From positions 1 through 11,488 of the forward strand of contig JBBDTI010000039.1 of assembly GCA_040904565.1 (NCBI GenBank): 11,488 nucleotides of DNA, read 5' to 3'. Positions 1,690-11,370 of this stretch are shown here, in pieces (the first letter of the stretch is position 1; every line of letters starts with the position of its first letter). The translations under genes were made by a program, and so were the position numbers. The notes beneath the pieces were generated by a model that saw only the letters and a list, made by a program, of their open reading frames with translations, did not search any database and was not told where the DNA came from. Source of the stretch: Rhodothermales bacterium (lineage in GTDB: Bacteria; Bacteroidota; Rhodothermia; Rhodothermales; VXPQ01).

Positions 1690-3675
1690 ATGGTGGACAA
1701 CACCTTGCCTTCGAAATGGTCACGCGTCGTTCTTGCATGGATCAAGCCCGTCGTCGACGGTGGCCGGTGGCCGGTAAAAAGATCCGTCGGAGAAACCGTA
1801 ACCGTAACCGCGGCGTGGATAGCCGACGGTCATAACAAGATCGCCGGCGAGCTCTTCTTCCGGGACGAAGACGACGAAGAGGACCGTGTGCGCCGCATGG
1901 AGCTGCTCCATAACGACGAGTATCAGGCCTCCTTCGACGTCGATCGCCTGGGACGCTATACGTATCGCGTTCGTGCTTGGATCGATCGGTTCGCAACGTG
2001 GCAGGATCAGTACAAGCGACGCGTCGAGGGGGGCGACACCGAGTACGAGATCAAGAGCGAGCTCCTGGACGGAGCCGCCCTCCTGCGCGAGGCGGCCGAG
2101 GCCGCCGAAGAGCCGGATGCCGGCGAACTGCTGCGCTATGCCGAGGCCTTCGAGGACGGCGACGTGGAGGCAGCACTCAACCAGACCGTACTGAAACTCG
2201 CGCAATCCAACGATCCCCGCAAGGGGGCTGTCGTCAGCGAGACGTACGAGCTGCAGGCCGACCCGGAGCTGGCCCGGTTCGCGGCGTGGTACGAGTTTTT
2301 TCCGCGATCGGCTCCGACGAAAAACGAAAACGGGCATGCCACGCTGAACGATGCGGCCAAGCTTCTCCCCCGCATCAAGGAGATGGGATTTGACGTGGTC
2401 TATCTTCCGCCCGTCCACCCCATCGGTCGAACGCACCGCAAGGGAAAGGACAACGCGCCAACGGCAGCGCCCGACGAGCCTGGAAGTCCGTGGGCGATCG
2501 GCGCCGGCGAGGGAGGCCACAAGACCGTCCACCCCGACCTGGGCGGACTGGAAGCGTTCGATCGATTCGTCTCGGAGGCGGACGAACTGGGACTGGCCGT
2601 GGCGCTGGACATCGCGTTTCAGACGTCACCGGACCATCCCTACGTCAAGAAGCATCCCGACTGGTTCAAGCAGCGTCCCGACGGGTCGATTCGTTACGCG
2701 GAGAATCCACCCAAGAAGTATCAGGACGTCTATCCCATCAATTTCGAGTCGGCGGACTGGAAGAATCTGTGGGCCGAGCTGAAGAGCGTCTTCGAGTTCT
2801 GGATCGAGCGCGGCGTCAAGGTCTTTCGCGTCGACAATCCGCACACGAAACCCTTCGCCTTCTGGGAATGGTGCCTGGGCGAGCTGCGAAGAGAACACCC
2901 GGAGACGGTCTACCTGGCCGAGGCGTTTTCCAGGCCGAAGATCATGTACCAGCTGGCCAAATTGGGGTACAACAACTCCTACACCTACTTCACCTGGCGC
3001 AACACGAAAGAGGAGCTCGTCTCGTACTGCCTCGAGCTGTACGACACGGAGGTCGGTGACTTTTTCCGGCCCAACTTCTGGCCGAACACGCCCGATATCC
3101 TTCACGACTACCTGGTGCACGGCGGCCGGCCGGCGCACGTCATCCGCTTCGTGCTCGCCGCCACCCTCTCCTCCGCGTACGGCCTCTACGGCCCGCCGTA
3201 CGAGCACGTGGACAACCGCCGGCATCCCGATCGCGAGGAGTATGCCAACAATGAGAAATACGAGGTCCGGTCCTGGAACTGGCACGACCCGAGCTCCCTC
3301 CAGCCGCTCATCAAGCGCGTGAACGCGATTCGGCGCGAGAATTCCGCTCTGCATCACATGCGGAACGTGACGTTTCACGAGACCGACAGCGCGCATCTCC
3401 TCGCCTACTCGAAACGTCACGAAGACAACCTCATTCTGGTCATCGTCAACCTGGATCCGTATCACGAACATCAGGGTTGGGTGCACCTTCCGCTCGATGA
3501 ACTCGACATTCCCGAAGAACGACCCTACGAGATGCACGACATGCTGGGCGGCGAGCGCTACTACTGGAGCGGGGCGGACAACTTCGTGAAGCTCTCCCCC
3601 CACGTGACGCCGGTCCACATCTTCCGCGTCTACAACCACCCGCGAAGGGAGAGCGATTTTGATTATTTCGTATGA
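1690..3675 (+). CDS. glgE: Alpha-1,4-glucan:maltose-1-phosphate maltosyltransferase GlgE (GH13_3)
   Basis: 661 aa with PVVDGGRWPVKR, AWYEFFPRS, YLPPVHPIG, RKGKDN, YAENPPKKYQDVYP, FRVDNPHTKP (nucleophile Asp), YLAEAF (acid/base Glu), FWPNTPDIL and EKYE, all characteristic of GlgE. Confidence 0.97.
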   Translation: MVDNTLPSKWSRVVLAWIKPVVDGGRWPVKRSVGETVTVTAAWIADGHNKIAGELFFRDEDDEEDRVRRMELLHNDEYQASFDVDRLGRYTYRVRAWIDRFATWQDQYKRRVEGGDTEYEIKSELLDGAALLREAAEAAEEPDAGELLRYAEAFEDGDVEAALNQTVLKLAQSNDPRKGAVVSETYELQADPELARFAAWYEFFPRSAPTKNENGHATLNDAAKLLPRIKEMGFDVVYLPPVHPIGRTHRKGKDNAPTAAPDEPGSPWAIGAGEGGHKTVHPDLGGLEAFDRFVSEADELGLAVALDIAFQTSPDHPYVKKHPDWFKQRPDGSIRYAENPPKKYQDVYPINFESADWKNLWAELKSVFEFWIERGVKVFRVDNPHTKPFAFWEWCLGELRREHPETVYLAEAFSRPKIMYQLAKLGYNNSYTYFTWRNTKEELVSYCLELYDTEVGDFFRPNFWPNTPDILHDYLVHGGRPAHVIRFVLAATLSSAYGLYGPPYEHVDNRRHPDREEYANNEKYEVRSWNWHDPSSLQPLIKRVNAIRRENSALHHMRNVTFHETDSAHLLAYSKRHEDNLILVIVNLDPYHEHQGWVHLPLDELDIPEERPYEMHDMLGGERYYWSGADNFVKLSPHVTPVHIFRVYNHPRRESDFDYFV

Positions 3676-3713: not shown

Positions 3714-6700
3714 ATGACCGACTTCCTCACGGACCCATCCTGGTACAAGGATGCCGTCATCTACGAGCTGCACGTCCGCTCGTTTTATGATGCATCCAAC
3801 GACGGGTATGGCGACTTCGAAGGACTGCGACGCAAGCTTCCCTATCTCGAGTCACTGGGCGTGAATACGCTGTGGCTTCTGCCGTTTCTGGAGAGTCCCC
3901 TGAAAGACGACGGCTACGACACGGCCGACTACTTCAAGGTGCTGCCCGTCCACGGGACGATAGACGACTTTAAGGCATTCCTCAAAGAAGCCCACAACCG
4001 GGGAATGCGCGTGATCACGGAGCTGGTGCTCAACCACACATCCGACCAGCACCCCTGGTTTCAGGAGGCCCGTGATCCTTCGTCGGAAAAACACGACTGG
4101 TACGTCTGGGGCGATACCACGGAACGATACGGCGACGCGCGCATCATCTTCACGGATACGGAGGTGTCGAACTGGTCGTGGGACCGGCAGGCGGGCAAGT
4201 ACTACTGGCATCGCTTCTTCAGCCACCAGCCCGACCTGAATTACGACAATCCCGACGTTCGTGCCGAGATGAAGGAAGTGCTCTTCTACTGGCTGGATAT
4301 GGGTGTGGATGGACTCCGGCTCGACGCCGTGCCCTATCTCTACGAGCGGGAGGGCACGAACTGTGAGAACCTGCCGGAGACGATCGACTATCTAAAGGAG
4401 CTTCGATCGGCCATCGAAGAGCGTTACGGCCCCGGTAAGATCATGCTGGCCGAGGCGAATCAGTGGCCGGAGGATACCCTGCCGTATTTCGCCGACGGCG
4501 AGGGCGTGCAGATGGCCTTCAATTTTCCCATCATGCCGCGCATGTACATGGCGCTGCGTAGAGAAAACCGGCACCCTATCGTAGAGATGCTCGAGCTGAC
4601 GAGCGGCATCCCGGATGAGTGCCAGTGGGCCATCTTTCTTCGCAATCATGACGAGCTGACCCTCGAAATGGTGACCGACGAGGAACGCGACTACATGTAC
4701 CACGAGTATGCGGCCGAGCCTCGTTTCCGCATCAACGTGGGCATTCGCCGTCGCCTGGCCCCCCTGCTGGGCGGCGAACGGAAGCGCATCGAGTTGATGA
4801 ACGCGCTCCTCCTCTCCCTTAAGGGGAGCCCGATCCTGTACTACGGCGATGAAATCGGGATGGGTGACGACCCCTTCCTGGGCGATCGCAACGGTGTACG
4901 CACGCCCATGCAGTGGAGCCCGGATAAAAATGCCGGCTTTTCACGGGCGTCCCATCACCGGCTCTTCATGCCCACGATCGGACGCGGGCCGTTCAGTTAC
5001 GAGTTCGTCAATGTGGAGGAGGCGGAGGCGGATCCCTACTCGTTGTTGAACTTTATGAAACGCCTTCTCGCCATCCGCAACCGGCATACGAAAGTCTTCG
5101 GGCGCGGCTCGATTGAGCTGCTGCCCCTCGAGAACCAGCACGTGCTGGCCTTCGTGCGCGAATATGAGGACGAGAAGATACTGGTCGTGGCCAACCTGTC
5201 CCGCTTCGCCCAGTCCATCTTCCTGTCTGACTCGGATACCTACAGGGGCTACACGCCGGTCGAACTGTTCAGCCAGTCGCCGTTCCCCGCGATCGGGGAC
5301 TCGCCCTATCACATGCTCCTGGGACCGCATGGATTTTTCTGGTTTAGCCTCGAACCCGAAGAATCGGTTTCGGCTGAGCGCTTGCAAGGCGTGCAGATGC
5401 GCCCGGACCAGCGGTCCGAAGACCTCCCGGTACTCTCGGTGGCGGAGGGCATCCAGAACCTCCTCGTTCGCACCATGGTGCGAGATCGGGGCATGAAGCA
5501 TCTGGAGAGCTTGCTGCCGGATTACGTCGCCGACCAGCGGTGGTACGGAGAAAAGGACCGGGGCATCGCGTCGATCGAGATCGACGACGCCGTCCGCCTT
5601 CAGACCAACCCCTTCCCGATCTATCTGACGCTGCTGCGCGTCCGGACCGTAGACGACTCGGAAAGCCTGTATGTGCTCCCGTTGACGCTGAGTTTCGACG
5701 GGGCGGCCGATGCCGTGCTCGACGAACACGACGGGTCGGTCATCGCCTGGGTAGATGGGCCGGACGGACGCGGCCTGCTGCACGATGCCACGGTGCGGCC
5801 AGATTTCTGGCTCCGTCTGTTTCGCTGGTGGCTCAAAGGGGGACGTGGGCGGTCCCTCCGGGGCGTCTATAAGGCATCCATCGACCGGAGCATCAGTCAC
5901 GACGCGGTAGAGACGGCTACGCTCCTCTCCGGCGAGCAGAGCAACTCATCCGCCATCATCGACGATCGGTTCTTCATCAAACTCTATCGGCGGATGGAGG
6001 AGGGTACGAATCCGGAGACCGAGCTACTCCACTATCTCACCGACGCCGGCTTCAAGTTTATCCCGCAGCTCTACGGCCGTGTTACGTTTCGGGCCGGCAA
6101 ACGGGAGTATGCGATGGGCATTCTCCAGGACGCACTGCCCGTCGAAACGGACGGCTGGAACCGCGCGATCGACATCACCCACCGTTTCTTCGAACGCGTT
6201 TCCGAGATGACGCCCCCGGCAGGCGCCCTACCAAAACATTTCGATGATGACGTACCTGGATGGCTCGAAGACGTCGCGCCTGAAATGCTTTCCCTGGCCC
6301 GGTTGTTGGGCATCCGAACCGCCGAGATGCACCTGGCGCTGGCCCGAGCCGAAGACGGGGATCTCACCCCCCTCCCGGGTTCGGATCGAGATGTCGTCGA
6401 TCTCGTCGATCGCATTCGGGGCGAATCGGCCGAGACGCGGCGCATGCTGGCGCGGCACGACGACCGGCTGGCAGACCTGCCGCGGGCCGCGGAATGGGAC
6501 GCCGGGCTCGATTTTCTGGAGCGCGTCACGGCGGCAGACGACCCACCCGACAAGATTCGCATTCACGGCGACTTCCACCTCGGACAGGTCCTTCTCGCCG
6601 CCGGCGAACTGTACATTCTCGACTTCGAGGGCGAACCCGCTCGAAGTCTGGAAGAACGGCGTCGCCGCGACATCGCCCTGCGTGACGTAGCAGGCATGCT

Positions 6701-7067
6701 TCGGTCGCTCGAATATGCGGTGCTGGCGGCCTGGAACGATCAGCGAGACGGCCGGCAAGGCGGCGAAGACAAGCTCGGGGGCTGGGCGCGCGCCCTCACG
6801 CACTGGTGCGAGGCCGTGTTTCAGTCGGCCTACTTCGGCACGGCCGGGGACGCCGGCTTCCTTCCTTCGGAGGAGGCGCGTCGAAGCTACCTGTGGGCCT
6901 TCCTCTTCGACAAAGCGCTCTACGAGGTACGATACGAGCTAAACCACCGTCCAACCTGGACCTGGCTGCCGCTCCGCGGTCTGAAGCGTCTGCTCGCTGA
7001 GGCGCGGATGGAGCCGGATGCGCCCACCGACGAACCTACCGGGAAACTCACGGATAAATCCGATTGA
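3714..7067 (+). CDS. treS: Trehalose synthase TreS fused to maltokinase (Pep2/Mak)
   Basis: 1117 aa. The N-terminal ~550 aa is TreS: [64 protein letters not shown]. The C-terminal half is maltokinase: [62 protein letters not shown]. Confidence 0.96.
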
Positions 7068-7116
7068 CTCGCTTGCCGGCGAACATCTTCATTCTCCAAA
7101 CCAGACGTTCCGACCT

Positions 7117-8988
7117 ATGTCCTGGCTCGATAACGACGACATCCGGCGCTGGAACGACGGCGCCTTCCACACGAGCTACGAAAAACTCGGCGCCCATCCC
7201 AACAGCCAGGGAACGTGGTTTGCCGTGTGGGCGCCGTGGGCCGACTCCGTGTCGGTCCTGGGCGACTTCAACGACTGGGATCCCGACGCGCACGCGTTGA
7301 AGCGCAACGATGCGGGGATATGGGAAGGGTACGTCCGGGGAGCGCGGGTAGATCAGCGCTACAAGTACCGGATCCGCCGCGGGATGTATACGGTCGACAA
7401 GACGGATCCCTATGCGTTTGCCATGGAGGCCCCGACCGCGCGCGGCGACACGTCGGCCGGACTCGCCTCCATCATCTGCGACCTCGAGTACTCGTGGTCG
7501 GACGGCGCCTGGCTGGACGAGCGAGGCGGCCCCGAATCCCTCAACCAGCCCGTCTCCATCTACGAAGTACACCTCGGTTCGTGGCGCAAGCAGGGAGATT
7601 ACTCCATGAGCTACCGCGAGATCGCCGAACCGCTGGCCGACCACGTTCAAGAGCTTGGATTCACGCACGTAGAGCTCATGCCGGTGATGGAGCATCCCTT
7701 CTACGGCTCGTGGGGATACCAGGTCTTAGGCTACTACGCACCGACCTTTCGCTTCGGCAAGCCGGGAGACTTCAAGTATATGGTCGACTACCTCCACCAG
7801 CGCGGCATCGGGGTGCTGCTCGACTGGGTCCCCGCGCATTTCGCTACGGACCCGCAGGGGCTCGTCTTTTTCGACGGAAGTACCCTCTACGAGTACGACG
7901 ATCCCGGGATGAGGTATCATCCCGACTGGGGCACGTACGTGTTCGATTATCACAAGCCGGGCGTGAAAAATTTCCTCGTTTCGAACGCGCTGTTCTGGCT
8001 GAAAGAATATCACATCGACGGGCTCCGATTCGACGCCGTCGCATCCATGCTGTACCGCGATTACTCACGCGGTGAATCGTGGTCTCCGAACATGTTCGGC
8101 GGACGGGAAAATCTCGAGGCCATCGATCTGCTCAAGCAGGTCAACGAAACGGCCTATACCGAGGTACCCGACGTGATGATGATCGCCGAGGAGTCGACCG
8201 CGTACCCGGGCGTGTCGCAGCCCACCTACAACGGCGGACTCGGCTTCCTCTATAAGTGGAACATGGGCTGGATGCACGACACCCTCGAGTATATGAAAGA
8301 GGATCCCGTCCATCGCAAGTACCACCACGACAACCTCACCTTTCCGCTCGTTTACGCGTTCTCGGAGCATTTCACGCTTCCGCTGTCACATGACGAGGTC
8401 GTTCACGGCAAGGGCTCTCTCTGGTCCAGAATGCCGGGCGATCCGTGGCAGAAGGCGGCCAATATGCGCCTGCTATACGGACATCAGGTCGGACATCCGG
8501 GGAAGAAGCTGGTGTTCATGGGATCGGAGTTCGGGCAGGAGAGGGAATGGACGCACGACCATTCGGTCGATTGGCACCTTCTCGACGACCCGCTGCACGA
8601 GGGTATCATGGGGTGGGTGAAGGATATCTTCGGATTGTACCGGGAGCGTCCGGCGCTCTGGGATGACGGTCCGGAGGGATTCGAATGGATCGATTTCGGC
8701 GATCGCGAGAACAGCACCATCAGCTACATCCGGCGCTCAGGCGACAGCAAGCTCCTGTTCGTGTTGAACTTCACGCCCGTTCCCCGAACGAACTATCGGA
8801 TCGGGGTCCCCGACGATGGACGGTGGCGCGAGGTGCTCAACTCCGACGCCGAGACGTATGGTGGAGGCGGCATGGGCAATTTCGGCGGCGTGGACACGCA
8901 CCCGGTGCCCTTCCACGGGCGCCCACATTCGCTCGTGCTTACGTTGCCTGCGCTGAGCGTCACAATCCTCGAACCCGAGGGCCGTTGA
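7117..8988 (+). CDS. glgB: 1,4-alpha-glucan branching enzyme GlgB (GH13_9), short N-terminus form
   Basis: Motifs [69 protein letters not shown] and [14 protein letters not shown] place the start at ATG 7117 (MSWLDNDD, 623 aa). The track's 7018 start overlaps treS and adds residues with no recognisable GlgB character. Confidence 0.96.
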
Positions 8989-9053
8989 TAATTTGCGCAG
9001 CTCCGCCGGCCCTCCGGGAACTGTAATTCCTCAGGCTTCGAGGGCCGTTGATA
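8976..9053. repeat. 15-bp direct repeat duplicating the glgB 3' end
   Basis: CGAGGGCCGTTGATA at 8976-8990 and 9039-9053, 63 bp apart. Confidence 0.85.
9007..9047. terminator. Possible hairpin between the convergent glgB and histidine kinase genes
   Basis: CGGCCCTC (9007-9014) pairs with GAGGGCCG (9040-9047), with an inner GGAA/TTCC stem. There is no clear U-tract. Confidence 0.3.
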
Positions 9054-9055
9054 GG

Positions 9056-10030
9056 TCAGCCGGCCGGATCCGGGAAGCTGACCGTAAACGTAGACCCTTC
9101 GCCCAGGGTGCTGCAGGCATGGATGCGGCCGTCCATTAGCTCTACGAGCGACCGGGTCATCGCCAGTCCGAGGCCGGTTCCCCGCTCTCCACGTGCGCCT
9201 CGTCTCTCTCGCTCGAAGGGTGCAAAAAGCCGCGGAATGAAGGCGGTGTCCATTCCGCGCCCCGTATCCGCAACGTACAGCCAGATCCGGCCGTCGCGTC
9301 GTTCCACGTCCATCTCGACGCGCCCCTCGTCCGTATACTTGATGGCGTTATCGATGAGATTGTGCAGTATGCGATCCAGAAACAGCGGGTGCAGCTGCGC
9401 GGTCATTTCGTCGACGTCCGGAGCGAAGACCAGCTCGATATCCTTTCGTTCCGCATCACGGCGGAGGATCTCGACGCGGTCGCGGACGTGCCGAACGATA
9501 TCGACCTCAACGAGCTCGATCTCTTTCTCACCAAACTCTATCCGCGCGAGATCGATGACGCCGTTCAGCGTATCGATCAGATGCCTTCCGCTAGCCGTGA
9601 TGATCTTCGTCATCTCCAGATCCTCGTCATCGACGCGATCCCCGAGCATTTCGGCGAAGCCGACCATGCTCGCTACGGCGGAGCGGATCTCGTGGCTCAG
9701 CTTGGCCAGAAAGCTCGCACGATCGCGATCGGCCTGCTCCGCATCGCGAAGATATTCCATCGTCACGTCCACGAGGAGGACCACGCGGCCGCTGCCGGTA
9801 TCGGCGCCGCTGCCGCCGTCGAGAACGAGAAATCGCCGCTCTCCGACCGATATGCTGCGACGACCGCCTATCGCGTCCGGCCACGCCGGTATGAGGTCTA
9901 CGATCCGGCGCCCTCGAAGCACCTCGCCGGCGGATCCAAGCACGTCGGTCGCCCGCTCGTTTGCGTCGAGGACGACATCGTCCTCGACCACCAGAGCCGG
10001 TGCGGGAAGGGAATCCAGCTTTACGTTCAT
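9056..10030 (-). CDS. Cytoplasmic PAS-domain sensor histidine kinase (PAS-HisKA-HATPase_c)
   Basis: 324 aa. PAS-like N-terminus (LDSLPAPALVVEDD..DANERATDVLG..GRRIVDLIP..VVLLVDVT), H-box FLAKLSHEIRS (His113), N-box ILHNLIDNAIKYT, G1 VADTGRGM, F-box LFAPF and G2 GTGLGLAM. No obvious transmembrane helix or receiver domain. Confidence 0.93.
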   Translation of the reverse strand: MNVKLDSLPAPALVVEDDVVLDANERATDVLGSAGEVLRGRRIVDLIPAWPDAIGGRRSISVGERRFLVLDGGSGADTGSGRVVLLVDVTMEYLRDAEQADRDRASFLAKLSHEIRSAVASMVGFAEMLGDRVDDEDLEMTKIITASGRHLIDTLNGVIDLARIEFGEKEIELVEVDIVRHVRDRVEILRRDAERKDIELVFAPDVDEMTAQLHPLFLDRILHNLIDNAIKYTDEGRVEMDVERRDGRIWLYVADTGRGMDTAFIPRLFAPFERERRGARGERGTGLGLAMTRSLVELMDGRIHACSTLGEGSTFTVSFPDPAG

Positions 10031-10082
10031 ACCGCACTCAATCGATCAGGACACATCGGCGGGAATAGGCGTCGCAACGGTT

Positions 10083-10288
10083 GATCCGGTTCAGGAGCTA
10101 GACGGCGCAAGCGGTTCGAAAGCAACATTCAAATTGGCCACGCGACTAAAGATCGACCGCTTCCCGTCGATACACAGATCGACGCTGCAAACGAGCGTTA
10201 TGACATTCACGTGCGGGTGAGCCGCCCGATCCTGCGCGTGAACCGGCCCCGCGACTGCGCTTCGGCGCCGTTGCGGGGCTATTTTTTT
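10083..10288 (+). ncRNA. Candidate structured non-coding RNA, possibly 6S RNA; 5' end approximate
   Basis: End-to-end pairing CCGGTTCA (10086-10093)/TGAACCGG (10239-10246), several internal stems whose G-U wobbles work only on the plus strand, an A-rich unpaired segment (10119-10136), and a plus-strand intrinsic terminator although both flanking genes are on the minus strand. Confidence 0.55.
10246..10288 (+). terminator. Rho-independent terminator oriented for a plus-strand transcript; may also serve yjbQ
   Basis: GCCCCGCGAC-T-GCGC-TTCG-GCGC-C-GTTGCGGGGC forms a 14-bp stem with a C(UUCG)G tetraloop, followed by TATTTTTTT (10280-10288). Confidence 0.85.
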
Positions 10289-10727
10289 AAACCCCGCTCC
10301 CCTTCGTCCGCCCGAACAGCGTGGCAAACACGTTTCGACGGCCCCCTCTATTTCTGTGCTCGCACAGGTATACGCCCTGCCACGTCCCCAGCGCCAGACG
10401 ACCGTCGTGGATGGGAATCAGAAGTCCGCTCCCGAACAGGGACGCCTTCACGTGAGCGGGCATATCGTCGGATCCTTCAATGGTATGCGTCCAATACGGA
10501 GCGTCTTCCGGGACCATCTGGTTGACGTGCGTTTCAAAATCCGACCGTACGGACGGACTCGCATTCTCATTCAGTGTGAGTCCGGCAGACGTATGCTGGA
10601 TAAACAGGTGCAGGAAGCCGGAAACGTACCGGCGCACGTCGGACAGCTCGCGGAGAATCTCGTCCGTTACGAGGTGGAACCCACGCGGGCGCTCCGGGAG
10701 CGTTATCTGTTTCTGCGTCCATTCCAT
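10287..10727 (-). CDS. yjbQ: YjbQ/UPF0047 family protein (annotated as secondary thiamine-phosphate synthase)
   Basis: 146 aa from ATG 10727 (MEWTQKQITLPERPRGFHLVTDEI) with HTSAGLTLNENASPSV, HTIEGSDDMPAHVKASLFG and LGTWQGVYLCEHR. The track's 10904 start overlaps queE, so I rejected it. Confidence 0.94.
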   Translation of the reverse strand: MEWTQKQITLPERPRGFHLVTDEILRELSDVRRYVSGFLHLFIQHTSAGLTLNENASPSVRSDFETHVNQMVPEDAPYWTHTIEGSDDMPAHVKASLFGSGLLIPIHDGRLALGTWQGVYLCEHRNRGGRRNVFATLFGRTKGSGV

Positions 10728-10737
10728 AACATACGTG

Positions 10738-11370
10738 CTAAGGTATTCCGAGCAGTTTATGGGTTTGAAGCGAGAGTCGCCACGTGGGATGCTCCAGACA
10801 GTAGGCAACCGCCCGGCGCGTATGGTCATGGACCTGCGGGCCGTCCATTGGCTGGAGGAAATAGTGCTCGAAGGGAAGCCCCTCGAACAGCTCCGGAAGG
10901 GCATCGGGCTGCGGATAGACCAGTTTGAGCTCGTGCCCTCGCTTCAGCACGAGATCGGCTCCCGCCTTCGGACTTACGCAGATCCAATCGATCCCTTCCG
11001 GCGGCGCCTTCGTGCCGTTTGTCTCGACGGCCACTTCGAAATCTCGACCGTGCAGTGCATCGACCAGCGGGCCGTCGAGCTGAAGCAGCGGCTCCCCGCC
11101 CGTACACACGACGTACCGGCCGGCCGCCCCCTCCGGCCATCGCCTCGACACGGCGTCGGCGAGCGATTCGGCCGTCGTAAAGCTACCGCCGCCCGGACCG
11201 TCCGTGCCCACGAAGTCCGTATCGCAGAACTGGCAGACGGCTTTTGCTCGATCCTCTTCTCGTCCCGTCCACAGGTTGCACCCGGTGAATCGGAGAAAGA
11301 CGGCCGGGCGCCCCGTACGGGCTCCTTCCCCCTGAATCGTGTAGTATATTTCCTTTACGCTGTAAGCCAT
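10738..11370 (-). CDS. queE: 7-carboxy-7-deazaguanine synthase QueE (radical SAM), short CX14CX2C type
   Basis: 210 aa with KEIYYTIQGEG, PAVFLRFTGC, C31-X14-C46-QF-C49-DTDF, VCTGGEPLLQ, VETNGT, WICVSPK, FLQP and WRLSLQTHK. Confidence 0.96.
   Translation of the reverse strand: MAYSVKEIYYTIQGEGARTGRPAVFLRFTGCNLWTGREEDRAKAVCQFCDTDFVGTDGPGGGSFTTAESLADAVSRRWPEGAAGRYVVCTGGEPLLQLDGPLVDALHGRDFEVAVETNGTKAPPEGIDWICVSPKAGADLVLKRGHELKLVYPQPDALPELFEGLPFEHYFLQPMDGPQVHDHTRRAVAYCLEHPTWRLSLQTHKLLGIP

What the first reader, a model, noticed from the sequence alone, without database searches (positions are those of the whole stretch)
10083..10288. Plus-strand structured RNA between two minus-strand genes (6S-like candidate)
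Seen: the 256-bp gap between the kinase and yjbQ ends in a strong terminator whose U-tract and C(UUCG)G loop read on the plus strand, where there is no credible CDS to terminate. G-U pairs in three separate stems (10181-10186/10194-10199, 10206-10217/10231-10242, 10246-10255/10270-10279) are valid only on the plus strand. The ends pair (10086-10093/10239-10246), an A-rich strand AAAGCAACATTCAAATT is unpaired, and ATCGAC/GTCGAT (10152-10171) forms a central hairpin. Known: 6S RNAs are ~160-200-nt rods with a central bubble and are often missed in divergent phyla. Inference: a divergent 6S RNA or an undescribed sRNA transcribed divergently from the kinase. This is the best novelty candidate in the window.
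Basis: partly seen in the sequence, partly recalled or inferred. Interest (0 to 1): 0.7.

Follow-up and report, generated by a model that had tools for sequence, protein, structure and literature searches.

The report
Flagellar-sigma-factor-driven small RNA, not 6S
The gap holds a roughly 108-base non-coding RNA gene with a flagellar (sigma-28/FliA-type) promoter, a conserved hairpin with an unchanging C-rich loop and its own terminator; it is a new small RNA family of flagellated Rhodothermales, not a 6S RNA.

Summary
The 3' half of the reported interval (window ~10181-10288, + strand) is a real structured RNA. It folds far better than shuffles on the + strand only. It is conserved as one copy in 7 genera of its family plus one metagenome contig, with compensatory changes in both main stems and an invariant loop, GCCGCCCGA.

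The 5' half (10083-10180) is not RNA structure. It holds an invariant two-box promoter, CTAAAG-N16-CGATAC (10146-10173), present in 8 of 8 homologues. The same motif sits upstream of flagellin, flgM and a cheY-like gene in this genome and has the spacing of E. coli FliA sites.

The RNA occurs in the 7 family genomes that score about 188-194 bits for FliA. It gives no strong match in the 12 genomes of the genus that lacks such a FliA hit.

No 6S model matches, the shape is three hairpins rather than a rod, and the promoter is not a housekeeping type, so the 6S reading is not supported. "An undescribed sRNA divergent from the kinase" is supported.

Best reading: a sigma-28-dependent (late flagellar) small RNA that probably acts through the C-rich loop without Hfq. 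Its target is unknown, because my target hunts found nothing conserved. Expression is untested, since no RNA run was listed. It is a new member of a known kind.

The parts
10146..10151 (+). -35-type box CTAAAG of a sigma-28/FliA-type promoter
   Evidence: T(A/T)AAG is invariant in 8 of 8 homologues. The exact motif CTWAAG-N16-CGATAC occurs 12 times in the genome against 0 for the reversed control. TAAAG + 15 nt + CCGATAA is the layout of the E. coli FliA ChIP sites listed in Table 2 of PMC4183435.
10152..10167 (+).
   Evidence: The length is fixed at 16 in 8 of 8 homologues and no column is invariant (one is shared by 7 of 8).
10168..10173 (+). -10-type box CGATAC of the sigma-28/FliA-type promoter
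   Evidence: CGATA is invariant in 8 of 8 homologues. In this genome, spacing 16 gives 25 matches to T[AT]AAG-N16-CGATA, against 2 for spacing 15, 6 for spacing 17 and 8 for the reversed control.
10181..10288 (+). Predicted small RNA of about 108 nt. The 5' end is inferred, not mapped.
   Evidence: The start is placed 8 nt after CGATA by analogy with sigma-28 promoters (inference). The 3' end is set by the U-tract. The fold has z = -5.14. Covariance-model matches of 52-115 bits occur in 7 genera.
10181..10199 (+). Stem-loop 1, a 6-bp stem; a variable 5' module
   Evidence: Predicted. Under the assumed start, a 5' hairpin is predicted in 4 of 8 homologues and an unstructured 5' tail in the other 4. 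The window copy carries a 10-nt insertion relative to the others.
10206..10242 (+). Stem-loop 2, the conserved core: a 12-bp stem with a 13-nt loop
   Evidence: Helix 1 is 92.7% paired across 7 sequences. Three pairs have changes on both sides (GGG/CCU to AAA/UUU, AAG/CUU and others), and U-G/U-A and G-C/G-U alternations fit the + strand only.
10221..10229 (+). Invariant loop sequence GCCGCCCGA, the proposed seed or recognition site
   Evidence: Identical in 9 of 9 aligned copies, representing 8 distinct organisms. In 6 of 8 predicted folds it is presented as a CCGCC pentaloop closed by G-C.
10245..10288 (+). Intrinsic terminator: hairpin 10245-10280 with a CUUCGG apex, then a U-tract at 10282-10288
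   Evidence: Helix 2 has 4 pairs with changes on both sides. The U-tract overlaps the yjbQ stop codon (10287-10289, - strand). On the - strand the hairpin is not followed by U's.

Best explanation
Window ~10181-10288 (+) is the gene of a small non-coding RNA transcribed from its own sigma-28 (FliA)-type promoter (10146-10173) and ended by its own intrinsic terminator.

It belongs to the late (class III-like) flagellar regulon. It should be made when FliA is freed from FlgM, together with flagellin, flgM and a cheY-like gene.

I propose that it acts in trans through the invariant C-rich apical loop of stem-loop 2 (GCCGCCC). It would most likely pair with G-rich mRNA sites without Hfq and tune flagellar or motility-linked expression.

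Shown here: conservation, structure, the strand, the promoter motif and its regulon, and co-occurrence with FliA. Inferred: the exact 5' end, actual expression, FliA dependence, the trans-acting mode and the role of the loop.

My odds: about 0.7 that it is an independent sigma-28-driven small RNA, and about 0.4 that the loop is a base-pairing seed.
For: 1. Strand-specific structure. The + strand gives z = -5.14 (0 of 200 shuffles as good); the - strand gives -1.56.
2. Homologues. The model built from three copies gives one strong match (52-115 bits) in each of 7 of 19 family genomes, one per genus. One further copy lies on a metagenome contig.
3. Covariation on 7 sequences. 92.7% of cells are paired, against 34.6-49.0% when partners are slid. 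Seven pairs have changes on both sides. 0 of 500 shuffles reach the covariation score.
4. Promoter boxes. T(A/T)AAG-N16-CGATA is invariant in 8 of 8 homologues with an unconserved spacer.
5. Motif in the genome. The exact motif occurs 12 times against 0 for the reversed control. The relaxed motif gives 25 against 8, and 2 and 6 at spacings 15 and 17.
6. Genes behind the 12 exact sites: flagellin, FlgM, a CheY-like receiver, an SLT transglycosylase, a HEAT-repeat protein, a subtilase, a DUF4402 protein and a T2SSE ATPase. The rest are this RNA, a second sRNA-like unit, one site with no identifiable gene and one site inside a kinase gene. A second flagellin gene follows a relaxed site.
7. flgM in relatives. 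In 3 of 5 relatives examined, flgM carries the motif within 400 nt upstream of its predicted start. In the other 2 the start could not be placed reliably.
8. E. coli FliA-bound sites have the same boxes and spacing (PMC4183435, Table 2, passages seen).
9. FliA co-occurrence. TIGR02479 scores 188-194 bits in exactly the 7 genomes with the RNA, against at most 127.5 bits in the 12 genomes without it.
10. Independence from neighbours. A - strand kinase separates the RNA from glgB in 5 of 8 loci. The kinase and yjbQ come and go while the RNA stays. No + strand gene follows it.
Against: - No transcript evidence. No RNA run was listed for this DNA, and the 5' end is inferred.
- No conserved target was found (details under Tried and rejected). 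The base-pairing mode is therefore unsupported by data.
- The FliA/RNA co-occurrence rests on essentially one phylogenetic contrast, one genus against the rest.
- The U-tracts of two homologues are weak (G005 CAUUUACGU, G002 CCCACCUUUG). Some read-through into the antisense of queE, or of yjbQ-queE where yjbQ is present, is possible.
- The covariation rests on only 7-8 related sequences.
Confidence: 0.7

Rival explanations
1. It is a sigma-28-driven RNA that works by binding a protein. The invariant stem-loop 2 would be a protein recognition hairpin, acting as a sponge or decoy for a regulator of the flagellar checkpoint, rather than a base-pairing seed.
For: The sequence of the lower stem (UCRCGUxCG / CGCxCGUGA) is conserved as well as the loop, beyond what pairing alone needs. 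No conserved complementary target was found. No Hfq and no CsrA gene was found in this 94.9%-complete genome.
Against: No candidate protein is known. There are no GGA motifs of the CsrA type. There is only one hairpin copy per RNA, whereas sponges usually repeat their sites. C-rich apical loops are typical seeds in Hfq-less bacteria (recalled).
Confidence: 0.17
2. It is a cis-antisense device. The sigma-28 promoter's real job would be read-through transcription into the convergent queE gene (and yjbQ where present), so the hairpins would only modulate termination.
For: A convergent queE follows in 8 of 8 loci, with yjbQ between in 5 of 8 (queE named). The terminator U-tracts are weak in G005 and G002.
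Against: In the window the terminator is very strong, with an 11+4-bp stem and U7. Stem-loop 2 and its loop are far more conserved than a termination modulator needs. The whole region, glgB included, is syntenic, so the neighbourhood is not specific evidence.
Confidence: 0.07
3. It is a divergent 6S RNA: an RNA polymerase-binding mimic of an open promoter.
For: RF00013 finds no 6S in any of the 19 family genomes, so the family's 6S, if it has one, is unidentified. The element is a structured, terminated, non-coding + strand RNA.
Against: There is no 6S or 6S-Flavo match (the 6S-Flavo control rang nowhere, so one search is uninformative). The RNA is about 108 nt with three separate hairpins and no long rod or central bubble. 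The region that would supply the 5' half of a rod is unstructured and unconserved apart from the promoter boxes. 12 of 12 genomes of one genus of the family give no strong match. The promoter is of the FliA type.
Confidence: 0.02
4. It is not an RNA gene. The hairpins would be DNA-level or leftover elements, such as a bidirectional terminator for glgB and queE (with yjbQ where present) plus a relic promoter.
For: In G001 and G004 the element lies directly downstream of glgB on the same strand, with no kinase between. G003 keeps only a 29-aa kinase remnant there.
Against: In 5 of 8 loci a - strand kinase separates it from glgB. The G-U/A-U alternations and compensatory changes fit RNA on the + strand. 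The promoter boxes are invariant across 8 organisms.
Confidence: 0.04

Closest known systems
CJnc170 (FlmR) of Campylobacter jejuni, a FliA-dependent sRNA (PMC11187230; abstract and outline seen)
   Same: It is a small RNA under the late flagellar sigma factor FliA and part of post-transcriptional tuning of flagellar biogenesis. That its host lacks Hfq is recalled, not seen in the paper.
   Different: There is no sequence or structure relationship; nothing in Rfam matches the window. The phylum is different. Function has been shown for CJnc170 (overexpression reduces filament length and motility) and nothing has been shown here.
E. coli sigma-28-dependent sRNAs UhpU, MotR, FliX and FlgO (PMC10578931; abstract and passages seen)
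   Same: They are transcribed from sigma-28 promoters and belong to the flagellar regulon. UhpU has its own promoter inside a gene.
   Different: All four derive from mRNA UTRs and bind Hfq. This RNA is a stand-alone intergenic gene in a genome where no Hfq was found. There is no sequence similarity.
6S RNA (Rfam RF00013, and 6S-Flavo RF01685)
   Same: It is a structured non-coding RNA with its own terminator.
   Different: The length, shape, promoter type, distribution and model scores all differ.
C-rich-loop sRNAs of Hfq-less bacteria, e.g. Helicobacter pylori RepG and staphylococcal RsaE (recalled, not looked up here)
   Same: They present a C-rich apical loop as the likely seed against G-rich mRNA sites.
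   Different: They are different families. Here no G-rich target has been identified.

Membership tests
6S RNA (RF00013 / RF01685) | Scores at or above the gathering threshold of the Rfam covariance model | tested here: not met
   There are no Rfam matches in the window at gathering thresholds. At E up to 10 on 9950-10400, the only match is a terminator-like hit to P35 (18.2 bits against 70). RF00013 finds nothing in the whole genome, although the control genomes rang. RF01685 finds nothing, but its control rang nowhere, so that result is uninformative.
6S RNA (RF00013 / RF01685) | A long, largely double-stranded rod of about 160-200 nt with a central bubble (recalled definition) | tested here: not met
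   The conserved unit is about 93-108 nt and forms two or three independent hairpins. The upstream 98 nt fold no better than shuffles.
6S RNA (RF00013 / RF01685) | Housekeeping distribution across related genomes | tested here: not met
   Strong matches occur in 7 of 19 family genomes. In the 12 genomes of genus g8 there are none, and only 3 have weak hits of about 21.5 bits. Nothing credible was found outside the family among the 151 genomes sampled from the order.
6S RNA (RF00013 / RF01685) | Binds the housekeeping RNA polymerase holoenzyme and templates pRNA | not testable with these tools
   This needs a co-immunoprecipitation and pRNA assay.
Sigma-28 (FliA)-dependent small RNAs (a functional class, not a sequence family) | A FliA-type promoter (TAAAG-N15-(C/T)CGATA) directly upstream | tested here: met
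   The promoter lies at window 10146-10173. It is invariant in 8 of 8 homologues, is enriched in the genome and has the same layout as E. coli FliA sites.
Sigma-28 (FliA)-dependent small RNAs (a functional class, not a sequence family) | The same motif drives known late flagellar genes in the same genome | tested here: met
   Flagellin, flgM and a cheY-like gene follow exact sites, a second flagellin gene follows a relaxed site, and flgM in 3 of 5 relatives carries the motif.
Sigma-28 (FliA)-dependent small RNAs (a functional class, not a sequence family) | The organism encodes FliA | tested here: met
   TIGR02479 scores 192.3 bits at G000:C26:38133-38783, above the 189.6-bit cut-off. All 7 RNA-bearing genomes score 188-194 bits.
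Sigma-28 (FliA)-dependent small RNAs (a functional class, not a sequence family) | A short discrete non-coding transcript | tested here: inconclusive
   The terminator and the absence of a conserved reading frame are shown; indels and compensatory stem changes break any frame. No RNA data are available.
Sigma-28 (FliA)-dependent small RNAs (a functional class, not a sequence family) | Expression lost without FliA, and an effect on flagella or motility | not testable with these tools
   This needs genetics in a cultured relative.

The most novel reading that the evidence does not exclude
The invariant hairpin (UCRCGUxCG ... GCCGCCCGA ... CGCxCGUGA) is not a seed but a recognition module for a protein of the flagellar checkpoint. 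That would make this an Hfq- and CsrA-independent riboregulator that feeds back on late flagellar gene expression in Rhodothermales, a protein-titrating RNA of a kind not yet described for any flagellar regulon.
Probability: 0.15. Interest if true: 0.65.

Novelty: new member of a known kind. Interest (0 to 1): 0.45.

Why it matters
Two literature searches turned up no small RNA described for Rhodothermus. From recall, few regulatory RNAs are known in Rhodothermales and their relatives.

This element gives that group a well-supported sRNA family: promoter, structure and terminator are all conserved, with covariation. It is tied to a defined regulon, and this genome shows no Hfq or CsrA.

It extends the recent finding that late flagellar sigma factors drive small RNAs (E. 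coli, Campylobacter) to a distant phylum. That suggests such RNAs are a recurrent feature of flagellar hierarchies.

It also yields a usable FliA promoter motif and a first regulon list for these uncultured bacteria.

Tried and rejected
- Rfam, at gathering thresholds and at E up to 10: nothing relevant.
- The simple terminator scan missed the real terminator because of its interior mismatch.
- Pattern GTGCG-N5-GCCGCCCGAT in genome contigs: 120 or more hits in unrelated taxa. It was too unspecific and the scan was wasted.
- The longer pattern gave 39 stretches. Five are 'uncultured Rhodothermales' records whose sequences equal copies already found. I did not examine the other 34 and take them as chance.
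- Metagenome scan: 2 loci, one a duplicate of the G001 copy and one new.
- Order-wide scan of 151 sampled genomes: outside the family only one hit, 27 bits, which is a terminator behind a gene.
- Sequencing runs: no RNA holder was listed. There are 4 DNA runs of one study, one of which may be the source.
- Target hunts:
  - The perfect 11-mer complement of the loop in 5 relatives gave 37 sites, one being the RNA gene itself in each of the 5 genomes; the reversed control gave 29. The only homologous pairs are coding motifs: an ABC signature and a second conserved coding stretch that I did not identify.
  - The 8-mer and 10-mer complements in the own genome are too frequent at 61.5% GC (739 sites for the 8-mer) to say anything.
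  - RNAduplex of the loop against 14 sigma-28-linked or neighbouring 5' regions gave flgM as the best, at only the 8th percentile of 1000 random windows.
  - The flgM pairing (GGAUCGGG with CCCGAUCC) holds in the window's genome only. It is 6 bp in G003 and absent in G005 and G002.
  - I listed 40 candidate genes with GGGCGGC near a start but did not annotate them.
- A small ORF inside the RNA was rejected. MTFTCG exists only in the window's 10-nt insertion, and the 104-aa ORF 10211-10525 reads through the terminator and is not frame-conserved.
- A riboswitch or leader was rejected: no + strand gene follows in 8 of 8 loci.
- The second sRNA-like unit is not conserved by blastn in the 18 other family genomes.

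Full report
**Setting**

The window is part of contig C39 of a 4.02-Mb, 95-contig genome that is 94.9% complete. Five homologous loci in named public records are titled 'uncultured Rhodothermales bacterium'.

The genes around the finding are:

| Gene | Coordinates | Strand | Note |
|---|---|---|---|
| glgE | 1690-3675 | + | |
| treS-mak fusion | 3714-7067 | + | |
| glgB | 7018-8988 | + | |
| PAS-HisKA-HATPase histidine kinase | 9056-10030 | - | |
| yjbQ | 10287 to about 10700 | - | TIGR00149, 132.8 bits |
| queE | 10738-11370 | - | TIGR04508, 354.9 bits |

The 390-aa + strand ORF at 9048-10220 has no Pfam match and lies antisense to the kinase, so it is a shadow frame.

**The observation**

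The 256-bp gap and the + strand terminator are as described. The terminator is a hairpin at 10245-10280 with a CUUCGG apex, followed by U7.

Folding splits the reported interval in two:
- 10181-10288 on the + strand gives -57.5 kcal/mol, z = -5.14, with 0 of 200 shuffles as good.
- The same bases on the - strand give z = -1.56.
- 10083-10180 on the + strand gives z = -0.36, with 69 of 200 shuffles as good.

The proposed pairing of the ends, the 'central hairpin' ATCGAC/GTCGAT and the A-rich strand all lie in that unstructured 5' half.

**Relatives**

BLASTN against 61 genomes (the window's own plus 60 relatives) matched 5 at E up to 0.01, the window's own genome included:
- Two matches are informative: G003 at 89% over 82 nt and G001 at 76% over 68 nt. 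Both cover window 10207-10288.
- Two are 21-23-nt matches that I did not pursue.

A covariance model built from the three copies then found one strong match (52-115 bits) in each of 7 of the 19 genomes of the family, one per genus. In the remaining genus, g8, 3 of 12 genomes gave only weak hits of about 21.5 bits.

A rebuilt model run over 151 sampled genomes of the order found strong matches only in the three non-g8 family members of that sample. The one outside hit, at 27 bits, is a terminator behind a gene. A metagenome pattern scan added one new copy and one duplicate.

**Structure**

On the 7-sequence alignment:
- 92.7% of cells form standard pairs, against 34.6-49.0% when the partners are slid by 1-3 columns.
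- Seven pairs carry changes on both sides, for example GGG/CCU to AAA/UUU, AAG/CUU and GCG/CGU at the top of stem-loop 2.
- 0 of 500 shuffles reach the covariation score.
- Several pairs alternate U-G/U-A or G-C/G-U. That fits an RNA read from the + strand and would be A-C mismatches on the other strand.

These sequences are related and few, so the shuffle figures are not probabilities.

The loop GCCGCCCGA (window 10221-10229) is identical in all copies. In 6 of 8 predicted folds it is a CCGCC pentaloop closed by G-C. The 5' module is variable under the assumed start: 4 of 8 have a small hairpin and 4 of 8 an open tail.

**The promoter**

Upstream of every copy lie two invariant boxes, T(A/T)AAG and CGATA. 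They are separated by exactly 16 bp in which no column is invariant, in 8 of 8 homologues. In the window they are CTAAAG at 10146-10151 and CGATAC at 10168-10173.

In the window's genome:
- The exact motif occurs 12 times, against 0 for the pattern read backwards.
- The relaxed motif occurs 25 times at spacing 16, against 2 at spacing 15, 6 at spacing 17 and 8 for the reversed control.

The 12 exact sites lead to the following:
- a flagellin gene;
- flgM (anti-sigma-28);
- a CheY-like receiver;
- an SLT lytic transglycosylase;
- a HEAT-repeat protein;
- a subtilase;
- a DUF4402 protein;
- a T2SSE-type ATPase;
- this RNA;
- a second short terminated unit;
- one site with no recognisable gene;
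- one site inside a kinase coding region.

A relaxed site precedes a second flagellin gene. flgM carries the motif within 400 nt upstream of its predicted start in 3 of 5 relatives looked at. In the other two I could not place the start.

The FliA-bound sites of E. coli listed in Table 2 of PMC4183435 have the same boxes at the same spacing, TAAAG + 15 nt + CCGATAA. An example is TAAAGTTTCCCCCCTCCTTGCCGATAAC for tar.

I therefore read the motif as the sigma-28/FliA promoter of this organism. I place the start of the RNA near 10181 by analogy. That position is inferred, not mapped.

**Co-occurrence with FliA**

The FliA/WhiG model TIGR02479 scores 188-194 bits, at or just under its 189.6-bit cut-off, in exactly the seven genomes that carry the RNA. 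In the twelve g8 genomes its best score is 127.5 bits, which matches other sigma-70-family genes that the seven also have. This is essentially one phylogenetic contrast. It is consistent with the reading but is not a statistical test.

**Independence from the neighbours**

Synteny across the 8 loci is as follows:

| Element | Strand | Present in |
|---|---|---|
| glgB | + | upstream in all 7 loci that reach far enough (the metagenome locus does not) |
| kinase | - | 5 of 8, a 29-aa remnant in one, absent in two |
| the RNA | + | 8 of 8 |
| yjbQ | - | 5 of 8 |
| queE | - | 8 of 8 |

The RNA is kept whether or not the kinase or yjbQ is there. In most genomes a - strand gene separates it from glgB, so it is not simply the glgB 3' end. 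No + strand gene follows it, so it is not a leader or a riboswitch.

No reading frame is conserved. Indels and compensatory stem changes break every frame.

**The 6S reading**

Against it:
- Neither the window nor the genome matches RF00013.
- The 6S-Flavo search found nothing, but its control rang nowhere, so it says nothing.
- The shape, length, promoter class and distribution all differ from 6S.

The family's 6S, if it has one, remains unidentified. I put the 6S reading at about 0.02.

**Mechanism**

What the data support is a stand-alone, sigma-28-driven, terminated small RNA of the late flagellar regulon.

How it acts is inferred. The genome shows no Hfq and no CsrA, at 94.9% completeness and with controls that rang. 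In such bacteria, C-rich apical loops often serve as seeds against G-rich mRNA sites (recalled). The invariant GCCGCCC loop is the obvious candidate.

My target hunts do not back this up. There is no enrichment or conserved placement of the loop's complement. No sigma-28-linked 5' region stands out. The 8-bp match to the flgM ribosome-binding region exists only in the window's genome.

The sequence of the lower stem is also conserved beyond what pairing requires. I therefore keep a protein-binding hairpin as the main rival (0.17) and terminator read-through antisense to yjbQ-queE as a minor one (0.07).

**Comparison with known systems**

The closest analogues by function are:
- The four sigma-28-dependent sRNAs of E. 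coli (PMC10578931; abstract and passages seen). These are UTR-derived and Hfq-bound.

There is no sequence or structural kinship to any Rfam family. Two literature searches listed no sRNA described for Rhodothermus, and I read only their listings.

The element is thus a new family within a known kind of regulator.

**Limits**

- There are no expression data.
- The 5' end is inferred.
- There are only eight related sequences.
- All the relatives carrying the RNA are metagenome-derived drafts.
- The supplements of the cited papers were not consulted.

Noticed in passing
G000:C70:~3950-4063 (- strand); locus L269 ~1400-1528: A second exact sigma-28 motif (CTTAAG-N16-CGATAC) is followed by a C-rich stretch of about 75 nt (CCACCGCC, CACCACCCC) and a hairpin with a U-tract. 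This is another sRNA-like unit. BLASTN finds it in none of the 18 other family genomes.
   Followed up: partly
whole family (19 genomes): The Rfam 6S model RF00013 matches none of the 19 family genomes, including 8 complete single-contig ones, while control genomes ring. The 6S RNA of this lineage is either very divergent or missing.
   Followed up: partly
G000, whole genome: No Hfq (PF17209) and no CsrA (PF02599) were found in the 94.9%-complete genome, with positive controls. Post-transcriptional control of flagella here must therefore run without either protein.
   Followed up: no
5' ends of the homologues in L208, L209, L211 and L277: Under the assumed start, 4 of 8 homologues begin with (A/G)UCACCUC(C), which resembles the anti-Shine-Dalgarno end of 16S rRNA (recalled). 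The window's copy lacks it and has a 10-nt insertion instead.
   Followed up: no
window 10224-10231 and G000:C26 just upstream of the flgM start (L261 ~1569-1576): CCCGAUCC of the RNA is perfectly complementary to GGAUCGGG, which lies 5-12 nt upstream of the flgM AUG in this genome. The match shrinks to 6 bp in G003 and is absent in G005 and G002.
   Followed up: yes
window 9056-10030 (-) and L206 1086-1172: The PAS histidine kinase divergent from the RNA is present in 5 of 8 loci, reduced to a 29-aa C-terminal remnant in G003 and absent in G001 and G004. The gene is being lost repeatedly next to a stable RNA gene.
   Followed up: partly
flgM 5' UTRs in L261, L308, L309 and L310: The flgM leaders share a short AGCCGCG(U/C)-like or CCGCGU-like stretch about 15-25 nt before the start codon. 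It resembles the RNA's GCCGC loop rather than complementing it. In a 61.5% GC genome this may be chance.
   Followed up: no
window 10282-10289: The TAA stop codon of yjbQ (- strand, 10287-10289) overlaps the U-tract of the + strand terminator. The two convergent units therefore abut without any spacer in this genome. Relatives have a gap of about 15-30 nt.
   Followed up: no
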